Below, in pieces: positions 6,693-45,931 of a DNA stretch of 64,000 nt. Position numbers and translations under genes: made by a program. This DNA comes from Octopus sinensis (Eukaryota), in NCBI RefSeq assembly GCF_006345805.1, contig NC_043005.1, forward strand, positions 69,254,001 through 69,318,000, read 5' to 3'. The notes beneath the pieces are model-generated. The model was not told where the DNA came from. It did no database searches and saw only the letters and a program-made list of their open reading frames with translations. Position 1 is the first letter of the stretch. Every line of letters begins with the position of its first letter.

Positions 6693-8677
6693 ATTAGACG
6701 TTGCACAGAAATATTTGTCTGAAGTGATAGAATGTAAGAGTGGTGTAAAAATAATAAATACCAAAATTTAAACAAATATAACAAAAGACCAAACAGCAAA
6801 AACCGTCACTTATCCAAACGTCCGTTATAATTTCACGCATTTGACGATAATATTCAGCAGCGAGAATTTCCTGGGAATAGAGGGCAAGTATTAGGGGACA
6901 GTGACAAAAAAAAATACGACACATGTGTGAATATACAAATTTATATATAAGTTTATATAGATTCTTAAAAGTATGCAAAAATACACGCAAGGACACATAT
7001 ATACAAATGTTGAAACTGTATATATGAATATGTGTGTTTGTGTGTGGTTGTGTGTGAAATTTTTATTCCGTGGTCTACTGAATCGTCGGTGGAAAATAGT
7101 TTTGAAATCTGGAGCGTTTGGAAAGTTAAATCACTTTAAAATGAATTACTTTCGTGGTTGCATGGCTTTTTAGCTGATCATATATTTGCTCTATAAAACA
7201 AAAACGTGATTTTTGTGTTTGCTGGTATATTCATAAATAAAGCTTTTTTATATCATAACCGATTGTTTAAATGAATATTAACATTTCAAAACATATATAT
7301 ATATATCACTATCTATACAAAAATATATTGATTTTTCGTAAACCTCGTGTTTCATTATCAATTGAAAGTCCATAGAAATATTTGGATCGAATCTATCTGA
7401 CATTCAATAACAGCAGGATGCCAGATGGATTTCTATATAAAATGCAATACTGGATGAATAAAATTATAATTTTGTTTCATTAATGAAATGTGTAACCTCG
7501 GTGAATAATAATTTTTCTTTTCTTTTTATGTCAGATAACAGCTTAGCATAGCGCAAGCAAATACCAACTCCAATTCACAAATCATTATAGGGTTCTGAAT
7601 GTCGTTCTAATGATAAAGATTTCGTTGAAGTCAACAAAAACAACAGGTTCGCTATTGTACTTTACCGAGCACCAATTTTCTTTTCTCCTAATTTAGAGTA
7701 ACATCATATTATACTAGTTGCACTGGTCCCCGATTTTGAAAAAGAAATAATGCGTAACGGGCTTTCAAATATCACGTCAAAGATACGATTATTTCAGCGG
7801 AAATATTTTATGATGTCTTATAAAATTAATAATTACGAAATATTTAATACAATGTCTTGACTATATGTGGAGCAATCTATCATGCTGCATAATAAAGAAT
7901 CCGAATATCGACATTATTAATTCTTACTTGAAGTGTAGGAATTGTAATTTTCTGCAAATTTGAAGAAAATGCTTGTCATCTATTTGGCAGAAAATTATCA
8001 TGACTATAAAGTATGTATATTTTTATGAGTGTGTACATATGTGCGTAACTGTGTGTGTATACGCACTGTTCTAGTTAACTTCCTAGATAGATTAACAGTG
8101 AAATTCGATGAAATTTGGATTGGGTGGTTGTTACTGTTTGGGATGGTGGAGTCTATTTCATTTCGCGAATGAGGCCCACCAGGATATATTCTTTCCCTGA
8201 ACGTCAATATTGAATATATATATATATATAGATAGATAGATAGATAGATAAATAGATAGATAGATATAGATATATATATCTTGCAAACTTCATACGTGCC
8301 TTGTGATGAACTCCCTCAGCACAAGAACATACAAACACCACATATAACCAGAATATAATATATTTAGCAAACGAATACACAATCCAACACGAATTTTTCT
8401 CCAGATGTCAAACCCAATGAAGGTGATCACTCATAAGTTGTCATCCAATAGTAGCGCCCCTTGATATCTTGCTTTCTTTAGGAGGCGTATTGTGAATTCC
8501 CGAGATATTTCGTATGTTCATCAAAAATAGAGAAAATTAGAATTCATCCATCTGACCGGCTTGAAGATATTAAGCTATTTTTCTTAATATGTGTAGGTAT
8601 GTATATATATATATATATATATATATATATATAAAATTGATCAAAATAAAAAATAAAAACATGATGCCAAGGATTCA

Positions 8678-8755
8678 GAGGTACATATGTTTCGGGCCTT
8701 TATTAGACAGATTTATAACAATGCATAATGTATGTCTGTGGCCTTCTTCAGCCGC
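8678..8755 (-). ncRNA. Minimal type I hammerhead ribozyme motif (left arm)
   Basis: Mirror of 8922-8999 with one stem I mismatch (cctc instead of ccgc). Confidence 0.7.
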
Positions 8756-8921
8756 GCACAACAACTTCCACAAGGACATGTGTTACATCAAAAATTCTAA
8801 GAACGAGATGGACGCTTCAATTCTATGCTGCTGCCGCATTATGTCGTACGCGAATGAGAGGATTTGCATCCCCAACCAAGAATTTTTGATGTAACACATG
8901 TCCTTGTGGAAGTTGTTGTGC

Positions 8922-8999
8922 GCGGCTGAAGAAGGCCACAGACATACATTATGCATTGTTATAAATCTGTCTAATAAAGGCCCGAAACATATGTACCGC
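8922..8999 (+). ncRNA. Minimal type I hammerhead ribozyme motif (right arm)
   Basis: gcgg CTGAAGA aggcc...ggccc GAAA catatg TA ccgc: stem I gcgg/ccgc, intact core, stem II ggcc/ggcc, palindromic stem III acatatgt, GUA cleavage triplet. Confidence 0.8.
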
Positions 9000-9714
9000 T
9001 GAATCCTTGGCATCATGTTTTTATTTTTTATTTTGATCAATTTACTCCTCCACCTACACCACCAAACGGTATATACAGGTGCTTACACTTATCAAGTACT
9101 CACCCCGAATTTCTGTACTCAAGTATATATATATATTATATATATATATATATATATATATATATGTATATATATATTCCTCGACATGTCTTGACCGGAA
9201 GAGTCGGTGGAACATTATAGTTGTTAGTTGAATGTCACTTTTTTATATGTACTGATAACAATTTCACATGCATGCGGATCGCCGGATTCGCAAAGTATAT
9301 AGGTCTTTTCGGATGTCAAGTTCATAGAAAAGAACTGTAGTTTTACCCCGATCAAACGTTAGGAAAGAAAGCAATAACATTATGCGAATCAGAAGCAGAA
9401 ATCCTTTCGTCCAAAATTGCAAATAAGAGCATGGATATATCGATGCAAATCTCTCGAATGTGTAATAATCATTTTATAGGAAGACACAATGGAGAAGATC
9501 TTTATACCACAGAAATTAAATATTATTGCCAAGGAAGATAATTTGGTACGATGAATCCTTACAAATGTCCGTCGAGAAACCTGGATAAAGAAAATTCTTT
9601 TGATGAAATATGTCCTTATTCACTGGTATAATAGTACTAGCTGTCATGCAGTACACCGGCTGAGTATGTAATGCAATATATGTTGAGTGGATGTCTGTAC
9701 ACGTATCTGGATGA

Positions 9715-42925: not shown

Positions 42926-43352
42926 ACAAGTTGAGTTGTGGGGTATCGCACGAGTGGGATTATATAAGAAAAAAGGTTTGAAAATGCAATTTAAACGATG
43001 TTTATTTACTTAACCGGTTTCACTCTTTGGTAAAAGATTGTCAAAAGTTACATTTAAGGAAACATTGAATAATATGGGTTCAAAAAAAGCTTTTTACATA
43101 ATTGTCACATTGAATATTATGCATTCAAAAAAGTTTTTACATAATTGTCACATTGGATATTATGAATTCAAAAATGTTTTTTTTATACATAATTGTCACA
43201 TTACATGTATAAATATAGTGTTTGGTAACAGAGAAGTTCAATAGTGTGATGAGAATATTGGGAAAATTTGGCAGAAAAGGATAAAACAAATATATTATTG
43301 GGAATTGGTTGCGTTAATTATTGGTTGTCGCAAATTGTCACATTACATGTAT
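42926..43352 (-). mobile_element. PLE pLTR-like remnant with decayed hammerhead and ~43-bp internal repeats
   Basis: Minus 43048-43008: actt TTGACAA tcttt-tacc-aaaga gt GAAA ccgg TT aagt; tacataattgtcacatt three times at 43090-43205; abuts (TA)n. Confidence 0.6.
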
Positions 43353-43624
43353 ATATATACAATCTTCGGTATATATATACAGCCTTTTGACAGCAAAATT
43401 AAAATGGATTTTTTATACATCTCAGAATATTTTAAGTACAAGGCGAGAATGTTTTTACTGACCTGTTGGTATTAGCATAAAGGCTGAACTGAGAGAACAG
43501 AGGAAGTAGCCAATGTGGTGTATACTTCCCCTTTATGCATGAATGATTTTGGGGTTATCAGGAGGTTAGTATGCGGGTGTGAATAGATGTGTCCGTGCCC
43601 GCTGGTCAGATAGCGTCTGTTTGT

Positions 43625-44625
43625 CACACACATATATACACACACACACACACACACAACAACAACACACACATACACACACACATAGTAAACAAACACA
43701 CACCACATACAAACAGCACACACACACACAGAACACACACACCCACACACAACGCACCCACATATATCACATATACACACAGCACACAAATATAATATGT
43801 ATCTATATATAACATACACATATATATAACACACATACACACACAACACACACACACACACACACACACACATACATACATAATATAAATATCACACAAA
43901 TACACCTAGCATATATATACACACACACAATACACACATACAGCATGTAAGTAATATACATACACAATATATGCATGCAATATACATACGCAGTACATAC
44001 ATATAATATATATATATAGACAATGCATATACATATATACACATATACATATAAATAGTGTTTACATACACATACATAGATGTACCACATATACACACAA
44101 TACACATACATACAACGCATACACATACACGTACGCATACATATAATATATATATACACACACACACATAACATACATACACAATGTATACATATATATA
44201 CACGCAATGCACATACATGTATTCATGCATATATAGCACACCAACAATATACATATATACACTGCACACATACACACACATATATACACTTAATTGTACA
44301 CATACATATACAATACACATACATACAATATACATATACACAATGCCATGCAAATAATGTACATGTTTATACACACATAAACAAGCAAATAAATATACAC
44401 ACACACACATACCACCACACATATATATACACCTATATATATATATATATATATACACACATACATACATACATACATGCACATACATATATTTTTTCAC
44501 ACACATACACATACATATATATATATATAAAAAATTCATATATATTATATATATATATATATATATATTTATTTATTTATTTATATACACATGCACACAC
44601 ACACACACACTCACACACATAAACA
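43625..44625. repeat. ~1 kb degenerate CA/TA microsatellite mosaic
   Basis: Directly visible; source of many spurious ORFs. Confidence 0.95.
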
Positions 44626-45592
44626 TATATAATATGTTTATATGCATATACACTCACGCACATATAGAAAGAGAAAAATGGTCAGGTAGATAGATTGATA
44701 GACAAACAGACAGACGGATAAATAAATAAAGATAGATAGATAGATAGATAGATAGAGATAGATAGATAGATAGATACAGAAAGAGAGAGAAATCTTCTAG
44801 GCATAACTTCATTAAAATATAAAACTTCAGTCTCACGTTATCATCTGAAATCTATGCCAAACCGTTTGGTCAAATGTGATTTACACTCAGTAAGGAACGA
44901 TAGTAATTTAAAATTAGTACGAAACATTCAGACAAACTCATTAATTGTATTTATTCTCATTCTTATTTTCTTGATATTTTGGCCCAATATTTTCGTGTAT
45001 AATGTACTGAACACCGATTATTACACAGTATTTCTTGGTGGTATTGTTTGGAAATACTTAAGAATACGGATGTAACTTATAAAAACTAATTATATATACC
45101 ATACGTGATTCTAAGATGTGAAAATAGCTCACATCTATAGGTTCAGCATTCCATAAATATAAAAATAGATTGCACAAGCAAAATGTTTATCTTGCAACTG
45201 TAATTTTATTTGGTTGTAATCTTAAGGCAAATCGTCCATCGAAGTGTGCATTGCTAAATCGTGGGAAAATAATTAAATGAAAATAAACCATATATTACAC
45301 AACACAGAGTGATGCTCACTCTCTTTCTCTCTCTCTCTCTCTCTCTCGCCAGCGCGCTCTCTTTCCTTCTCTCTTCCACGCATATACACAAACACACACA
45401 AACACATAAACAAATATAAAAGTATATGTACATATATATATATATTATATATATACATATATATAAATATATATATGTATATATATATATGCATATATAT
45501 ATGTAATATATACATACATATATATATATACATACATACATACAATATATATATATATACATATATATATATATTATATATATATAATAAAT

Positions 45593-45931
45593 ATTAGGGA
45601 ATGAATCCAAAATTACAGGGAAAAATCAGATTTAGGGTTAAATCCAATTTTATAGTAAAATATTATATAATATAATTCGAGACAAAACCACTATTTTAAA
45701 ACCAAACAAGGAAAGAGTTAATCAATACATAAAATTTTAATATAAATTAAATAAACCGCCACTACAATTGATACTGATTAGAAGATCGAAAATCCACCTG
45801 AAGATTGTCGGAGCAGACATGAAACATTTGTAGTGGCGGTTTATTTAATTTATATTAAAATTTTATGTATTGATTAAGTATTTCCTTGTTTGGTTTTAAA
45901 ATAGTGGTTTTGTCTCGAATTATATTATATA
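45593..45931. mobile_element. Fold-back PLE-like element: 104-bp arms, 60-bp spacer, ~70-bp tail, inside (TA)n
   Basis: 45664-45767 is the reverse complement of 45828-45931 with two mismatches. Confidence 0.85.
45794..45836 (+). ncRNA. Minimal type I hammerhead motif with intact core
   Basis: ccac CTGAAGA t tgtc-ggagca-gaca t GAAA catttg TA gtgg: stem I ccac/gtgg, stem II tgtc/gaca, GUA triplet. Confidence 0.8.

What the first reader, a model, noticed from the sequence alone, without database searches (positions are those of the whole stretch)
8634..45931. Recurrent architecture: unrelated hammerhead-bearing fold-back mini-elements nested in (TA)n
Seen: four sequence-unrelated short elements (8634, 22559, 39849/40256, 45593) share one plan: inverted arms, a one-sided 70-95 bp tail, (TA)n on both sides. 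Three carry a minimal type I hammerhead with a short, near-palindromic stem III; decayed motifs abut TA tracts at 9192, 22392 and 43008. Known: Penelope-like element pLTRs contain such minimal hammerheads, thought to act as dimers, and truncated PLE insertions often have an inverted pLTR. Inference: many PLE lineages here leave protein-free ribozyme hairpin modules targeted to (TA)n, giving a dense source of self-cleaving and long dsRNA in read-through transcripts (relevant to ADAR editing if this is a cephalopod). Density and diversity are what may be new, not the motif itself.
Basis: partly seen in the sequence, partly recalled or inferred. Interest (0 to 1): 0.75.

Follow-up and report, generated by a model that had tools for sequence, protein, structure and literature searches.

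The report
Penelope fold-back stubs from spliced RNA
These hairpins are short insertion scraps of several Penelope-type jumping genes, and in one family most copies have the element's intron cleanly removed, which likely means that the enzyme copies the spliced message twice, from two fixed points, into one DNA break, a clue to how these elements copy themselves and why long copies keep their intron.

Summary
The four elements are real. Three (8634, 39847/40254, 45587) are the hammerhead-bearing ends (pLTR + tail) of three different Penelope-like families; the two with full protein evidence show Hydra-clade motifs. The fourth (22559) is the hammerhead-less end of a 555-561-bp tandem retrozyme-like unit. 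Inverted arms, one tail, (TA)n targets and thousands of hammerheads are published PLE features, so the plan and the density are not new. The three 'decayed motifs' were not confirmed, and the hairpins are predicted to mask the ribozymes. Not found in the papers I could search: in the 45587 family, 68 of the first 100 genomic junctions, and the window copy, lack a 1.3-kb GT-AG intron precisely; none of 59 spliced arms passes the likely transcription start, while all 11 arms that pass it keep the intron. Head-to-head arms pair a tail-less end with a tailed end (65 of 75 pairs, 1 clear exception) and share splice state (23 of 23). Best reading: paired priming on one sense RNA. The scan noted similar things on other DNA (spliced fold-back in another genome; retrozyme footprints in this one). 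No RNA or cleavage evidence.

The parts
8634..8798 (-). E1 inverted arm, starts at site A (tail-less end); one substitution breaks its hammerhead stem I
8799..9043 (+). E1 sense arm: 5'-truncated pLTR of a Hydra-type PLE, ending at site A (9043)
8922..8999 (+). E1 type I hammerhead (long loop II, fully palindromic stem III)
9044..9123 (+). E1 tail (site A to site B); in L026 it runs on into the RT ORF
22559..22724 (+). E2: short inverted arm + sense end to site A (22630) + 94-nt tail to site B (22724) of a 555-561-bp tandem hammerhead unit; this copy is cut downstream of the ribozyme
39847..40052 (+). E3 copy 1: inverted arm (internally deleted), hammerhead 39912-39948 with CCGACGA core, site A 39982, tail to site B 40052
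40254..40460 (+). E3 copy 2, a local tandem duplicate (407-bp unit) with hammerhead 40319-40356
45587..45770 (-). E4 short inverted arm carrying the tail (site B end at the left)
45768..45784 (+). E4 remnant of exon 1; precise exon 1/exon 2 junction at 45784/45785 (1,291-nt GT-AG intron absent)
45785..45931 (+). E4 exon 2 with hammerhead 45794-45836, ending at site A (about 45925) in (TA)n
42330..42410 (.). Decayed fold-back of the E3 family between TA tracts
   Evidence: two short matches, 82-86%, E about 1e-4

Best explanation
These are 5'-truncated, two-armed insertions of Penelope-like retrotransposons (three ORF-linked families and one non-coding tandem hammerhead unit), likely made when the element's RT-endonuclease cuts both strands of a (TA)n tract and each cut end primes reverse transcription on the same sense RNA, one at site A and one at site B 70-95 nt downstream. 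Shown: the arms are pLTR ends of RT/EN-coding elements; every arm ends at A or B; head-to-head arms nearly always pair A with B; both arms share splice state and haplotype; E4 short copies carry a precise exon-exon junction and stop at or before a common 5' edge, while E4 arms reaching further upstream keep the intron. Inferred: the 5' edge is the transcription start; short copies are run-off cDNAs of the promoter-initiated, spliced mRNA (A and B lie only about 170-250 nt from its 5' end), so this mRNA can give only promoter-less stubs; long and full-length copies come from read-through, unspliced RNA, which would explain intron retention; the two cDNAs are joined at their 3' ends by microhomology or end joining; the E2 unit borrows the same machinery from a tandem or circular RNA. 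The stubs are probably inert, with the ribozyme masked by the hairpin.
For: ORF link: E1 tail runs into a 487-aa RT frame plus EN frame (L026); E4 likewise (L135/L136); E3 has a related EN C-terminus about 1.1 kb upstream (L197, L194; E 7e-14). Hydra motifs DKT, RWA/KWK, CxCX5C, CxxC, CxH (definition in PMC8557442 section 11). Pairing: E4 40 A+B of 43 pairs in 68 loci, 3 complex, no AA or BB; E1 14 of 14 in 21 loci (my count); E3 11 A+B, 1 AA, 6 split or partial of 18 in 28 loci. Tail-only inverted arms that overlap nothing on the other arm: L117, L147, L155, L259, L267. Tail on longer arm 11, on shorter arm 10 of 21. Splicing: intron 1,291 nt, GTATGT...TTTTAG; 68 spliced, 32 unspliced in the first 100 of 365 junctions, 17+6 concordant pairs, 0 mixed (my count; p about 2e-6); 0 of 59 spliced arms extend more than 33 nt above the donor versus 11 of 33 unspliced arms (Fisher p 4e-6). 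Spliced and unspliced copies intermix on a tree (15 changes, shuffled mean 16.1). A sister subfamily splices at its own donor 4 nt upstream. In vitro, a Poseidon protein cuts and extends both strands and starts at two internal sites that define the tail (PMC11167929).
Against: No RNA evidence here for the spliced mRNA, the start site or cleavage. E1 and E3 show no intron in the region sampled, so the splicing evidence rests on one family and its sister subfamilies. E1's 5' edge is broad. One clear AA pair (L142) and one possible (L087) exist. Arm identity could also come from snap-back copying or later arm-to-arm conversion, and junctions often sit on short palindromes. The 68 E4 loci were partly hand-picked by splice state and spacing, with wider flanks for unspliced ones. 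No autonomous partner was found for E2. Whether (TA)n pre-exists or grows after insertion was not tested (no empty alleles).
Confidence: 0.8

Rival explanations
1. One priming event plus snap-back: a single cDNA folds on a short palindrome and copies itself, and the endonuclease resolves the hairpin asymmetrically (self-priming model; in PMC3846280 proposed on an antisense template).
For: Fold points cluster on short palindromes (CTAG in E3, CAAAATTTG in E4). Arms within a locus differ by 1.0% against 3.0% between loci. It explains splice-state concordance equally well.
Against: Tail-only inverted arms that share nothing with the long arm (L117, L147, L155, L259, L267) cannot be copied from it. 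The tail is on the shorter arm in 10 of 21. Spliced junctions can only form on the sense strand, which rules out the antisense version for those copies. A hybrid (two primings, then snap-back fill-in) is not excluded.
Confidence: 0.12
2. The short elements are non-autonomous fold-back modules (MITE-like or SINE-like) that amplify as units, as the first reader's 'mini-elements' implies; the intron-less form would be one old deletion lineage.
For: Hundreds of short copies of similar length; many E4 hairpins have the same 57-nt spacing.
Against: Junctions differ copy by copy and the tail changes sides. Spliced and unspliced copies share all three haplotypes and do not separate on the tree. A sister subfamily has its own precise junction at a different donor. 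Stubs lack the upstream promoter region.
Confidence: 0.05
3. Hairpins are retained for a host role as cleavable or ADAR-edited dsRNA in read-through transcripts.
For: Near-perfect 107-165-bp duplexes would be editing substrates if transcribed (established knowledge; not tested here).
Against: Copies are young (93-99% identical); the insertion mechanism accounts for the shape; the hairpin is predicted to switch the ribozyme off; E1's second arm already has a broken stem I.
Confidence: 0.03

Closest known systems
EN+ PLE insertion units with inverted 5'-truncated pLTR and one tail (PMC8557442 Fig. 2 passages; PMC3846280 passages)
   Same: Head-to-head arms, tail at one end only, 5' truncation, palindromes at the junction.
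   Different: Tails are 71-95 nt rather than 30-40 nt; strict A+B pairing and shared splice state are quantified here and were not stated in the passages read.
Hydra clade of PLEs (PMC8557442, section 11 read in full)
   Same: DKT, RWK-like motif, CxCX5C linker, CxxC and CxH in the EN, no CCHH, canonical hammerheads, (TA)n insertion, Mollusca among hosts.
   Different: Long 3' regions (1.1-1.5 kb or more) and a 1.3-kb intron in the E4 pLTR; units reach 5-6 kb against the 'generally <3 kb' described. No tree with reference Hydra proteins was built.
Poseidon PAc of Anolis, in vitro (PMC11167929, results and part of methods read)
   Same: Two internal RT start sites bounding the tail, both target strands cut and extended, AT-rich targets, hammerhead cleavage not needed.
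   Different: That work saw no strand difference in start site and did not address pairing, inversion or splicing.
Penelope of Drosophila virilis and its 5'-UTR intron (PMC2377424 passages; PMC4209133 parts 1-2)
   Same: Intron in the pLTR ending just before the hammerhead; most transcripts spliced.
   Different: There retention is explained by selection or by the mechanism, called of unknown significance in PMC8557442; here precisely spliced genomic copies are the majority among short copies.
Metazoan non-LTR retrozymes (PMC7229834 passages; bioRxiv 10.64898/2026.07.22.740005 part 1 and passages)
   Same: E2: non-coding tandem units, one type I hammerhead each, low GC, dispersed arrays.
   Different: Unit is 555-561 bp (150-450 reported), cleavage triplet GUU, and arrays end at A or B in (TA)n with inverted arms, which points to one-step PLE-type insertion rather than local amplification.

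Membership tests
EN+ Penelope-like element | pLTR linked to an ORF with RT and C-terminal GIY-YIG-type endonuclease | tested here: met
   E1 and E4: RT (YRDD) and EN (VY/IY...YIG) frames downstream of pLTR+tail; E3: EN C-terminus upstream. Pfam did not hit the element's own frames; homologue P0020 hits GIY-YIG.
EN+ Penelope-like element | 5' truncation, inverted copy, tail at one end | tested here: met
Hydra clade | DKT instead of DKG; RWK motif; CxCX5C linker; CxxC and CxH instead of CCHH | tested here: met
   E1 and E4 carry all (RWA and KWK variants of RWK); E3 shows CxxC and CxH only, its linker was not in the fetched DNA.
Hydra clade | (TA)n insertion and canonical hammerhead | tested here: met
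   99 of 107, 45 of 45 and 24 of 30 arm ends next to (TA)3 against 8% background
Hydra clade | Phylogenetic placement with reference Hydra RTs | not testable with these tools
   No named reference Hydra sequences were available from the tools
Minimal type I hammerhead of PLEs | Intact core, stems I-II, palindromic stem III | tested here: met
   stem I sequences differ among the four families while pairing is kept; within E4 almost no compensatory change
Minimal type I hammerhead of PLEs | Self-cleavage, as dimer | not testable with these tools
   needs in vitro assay
Non-LTR retrozyme (E2) | Non-coding tandem units each with a type I hammerhead | tested here: met
   555-575-nt spacing of hammerheads in L085, no ORF in 25 loci
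Non-LTR retrozyme (E2) | Expressed as self-cleaving circular RNA | not tested
   no RNA data laid
MITE / fold-back DNA transposon | Fixed terminal inverted repeats copied as a unit | tested here: not met
   asymmetric ends, variable junctions, tail on either side

The most novel reading that the evidence does not exclude
Octopus Hydra-clade PLEs leave a genome-scale record that solves two open points of PLE replication: the template is sense RNA primed twice, at coupled sites A and B, by one dimeric enzyme; and introns survive in functional copies because the spliced mRNA can yield only promoter-less run-off stubs, while full-length copies come from unspliced read-through RNA. Retrozyme arrays use the same reaction.
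Probability: 0.55. Interest if true: 0.7.

Novelty: new variant of a known kind. Interest (0 to 1): 0.5.

Why it matters
PLEs are the sister group of telomerase, and how they keep introns and build inverted ends with one tail is called unknown in the papers read (PMC8557442, PMC3846280). Hundreds of precisely spliced, start-site-bounded stubs and coupled A+B ends give direct, countable predictions for the in vitro system that now exists (PMC11167929). They also give an insertion footprint for testing whether retrozymes are moved by PLE enzymes. As elements, the hairpins themselves are ordinary and probably inert.

Tried and rejected
Rfam scan: only repeat-driven microRNA hits among the 150 of 220 rows shown. 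Pfam on E1 and E4 frames and a PDB sequence search: nothing significant. My first guess of Neptune clade was dropped after reading the Hydra definition. A pattern taken from the one E3 copy that runs past site B matched only that copy, so E3's ORF start was not found. A first splice-state classifier by local alignment was unreliable on AT-rich DNA and was replaced. Sequencing-run search: no RNA holder listed; expression, start site and editing stay open. 'Decayed motifs' at 9192, 22392, 43008 rejected. No intron dichotomy seen in E1 (30 arms) or E3 (30 promoter-bearing loci, output partly cut). Literature searches for intron-less or spliced PLE copies and for twin priming in PLEs returned no report of them in the listings or in the passages read. 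Arkhipova 2003 and 2006, Evgen'ev and Arkhipova 2005, Lunse 2017 (names recalled) and PMC5850863 were not available, and no supplements were read, so a prior mention there is not excluded.
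Full report
Observation. The window lies in a 2.72-Gb genome, probably an octopus: the best named homologues of the element's protein are from Argonauta. The four elements exist as described. I call them E1 (8634-9123), E2 (22559-22724), E3 (39847-40052, duplicated locally at 40254-40460) and E4 (45587-45931). A hammerhead descriptor finds four hits (E1, both E3 copies, E4) against 0.13 in 30 shuffles. 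The three 'decayed motifs' lack a core in register.

Each element is a family. Exact 20-23-letter patterns match 1,422 times for E1, 466 for E3 and 387 for E4, with 0 for reversed controls; E2 gave 181 candidates. A general core pattern gives 24,630 matches against 1,888 for the reversed control, about 8 per Mb. PMC4209133 (parts 1-2 read) already reports about 9,000 in Xenopus tropicalis and 'dual min-HHRs 100-700 bp apart in opposite strands'. So neither the plan nor the density is new.

What they are. E1's sense arm and tail run straight into an RT frame of 487 aa and a frameshifted EN frame (L026). E4 does the same (L135/L136). E3 has a related EN C-terminus about 1.1 kb upstream in long copies. 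E1 and E4 RTs are 44% identical. Both carry DKT, RWA or KWK, a CxCX5C linker, and CxxC and CxH, the features that define the Hydra clade in PMC8557442 section 11, which also lists (TA)n insertion and canonical hammerheads. Pfam did not recognise these frames. E2 is different: it is the end of a non-coding unit of 555-561 bp that forms dispersed tandem arrays with one hammerhead per unit, a retrozyme-like element. The window copy is cut downstream of the ribozyme.

Ends. Every family has two fixed outer ends, site A (no tail) and site B (tail end), 82 nt apart in E4, 71 in E3, 95 in E2 and 71 or more in E1. They abut (TA)3 in 99 of 107 E4 ends, 45 of 45 E3 ends and 24 of 30 E1 ends, against 8% at random. 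Inner junctions vary from copy to copy, so each hairpin was built at insertion. Head-to-head arms pair A with B: E4 40 of 43 pairs (3 complex, none AA or BB) in 68 loci left from 78 after removing 10 duplicates; E1 14 of 14 in 21 distinct loci; E3 11 of 18 with 1 AA and 6 split or partial. Together that is 65 of 75. In E2, 8 loci with both ends visible are A+B and one may be AA. The E4 loci were the first 30 in genome order plus 48 picked from the listings by spacing or splice state, not by end type. In a tail-free best-hit sample the tail was on the longer arm 11 times and on the shorter 10 times. Some inverted arms hold only tail and overlap nothing on the other arm (L117, L147, L155, L259, L267), which needs a second priming.

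Spliced copies. Long E4 copies have exon 1, a GTATGT donor, a 1,291-nt intron and a TTTTAG acceptor 9 nt before hammerhead stem I. The window copy joins exon 1 to exon 2 exactly, at 45784/45785. Of the first 100 of 365 junction matches, 68 are spliced and 32 unspliced; all 23 head-to-head pairs agree in state (my count; chance about 2e-6). None of 59 spliced arms extends more than 33 nt above the donor (mode 24), where an initiator-like TCACTT lies (motif recalled, and noted for a rotifer pLTR in PMC3846280). All 11 arms that reach further upstream keep the intron (Fisher p 4e-6). Spliced and unspliced copies share haplotypes and intermix on a weakly resolved tree (15 changes, shuffled mean 16.1), and a sister subfamily has its own exact junction at a GTAAGT donor 4 nt upstream, so this is repeated copying of spliced RNA, not one deletion. 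One locus has a foreign exon spliced to the acceptor on both arms (L103). E3 shows a sharp 5' edge too: 24 of 30 arms that reach the search pattern stop within 4 nt of it, below a CCAAT-like box (motif recalled). E1's edge is broad, and neither E1 nor E3 showed an intron in the sampled region.

How it likely works. The enzyme cuts both strands of (TA)n and primes twice on one sense RNA, at A and at B; PMC11167929 shows two internal start sites bounding the tail and extension of both strands in vitro. Each cDNA runs a variable distance and the two are joined, giving inverted arms with one tail. Because A and B lie near the 5' end of the promoter-initiated mRNA, that mRNA, spliced in E4, yields only short promoter-less stubs. 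Long copies need read-through RNA, which in E4 is always unspliced in my sample. The pairing, the junctions and the 5' bound are shown; the start site, the single RNA and the order of steps are inferred. Snap-back copying after two primings is not excluded. An antisense template, proposed in PMC3846280, cannot give the spliced copies.

Function. In a read-through of any whole element, hammerhead stem I has predicted probability under 0.001, against 0.1-0.9 for the motif alone, so self-cleavage is probably off. Long dsRNA and editing are untested; no RNA holder was listed.

Novelty. The architecture is textbook PLE (PMC8557442). Spliced genomic PLE copies and coupled A+B priming did not appear in my searches or passages read, but key older papers and all supplements were out of reach. 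PMC8557442 calls the significance of intron retention unknown. The retrozyme papers propose PLE mobilisation without an insertion footprint in the passages read. The scan's own notes hold the same ideas on other DNA; I read them after reaching my reading, and they are not evidence. Verdict: ordinary elements that carry a useful, testable mechanistic record; interest 0.5.

Noticed in passing
window 39693-39822 and 40100-40229: A 104-bp GC-richer segment between TA tracts, duplicated with E3; no match in any fetched locus. Origin unknown.
   Followed up: partly
window about 48800-49960 and 56100-57270: Near-identical blocks about 7.3 kb apart (same ORF translations, same inter-TA segments): a local duplication.
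   Followed up: no
window about 42520-42600: By eye resembles an inverted E4-type tail next to (TA)n (sequence printed); not tested.
   Followed up: no
L103/L104 (G000:C1:8144495-8144814): Both arms carry the same foreign, GC-richer 140-nt exon spliced to the E4 acceptor: likely 5' capture of a host or other-element exon.
   Followed up: partly
L083:700-1190, L180, L034, L306: Ends of different hammerhead families sit side by side in the same (TA)n tract (another hammerhead unit before an E2 array; E2 after E3; E1-like tail after E3), so tracts are reused as targets.
   Followed up: no
L089, L091, L098: E2 arrays occur on both arms of one insertion (multi-unit inverted arrays), as expected from repeated passes over a tandem or circular RNA.
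   Followed up: partly
L292-L305: An older, diverse family with core CCGATGAAGGGATAT...GAAACAGCTGTA is among the commonest hammerheads in the first 10 Mb of C1; not classified.
   Followed up: no
protein search: 2,469 proteins match the E1 RT at E<=1e-10 among 7,992 scored, mostly about 700 aa from assemblies, suggesting the Hydra clade is far larger than first described.
   Followed up: no
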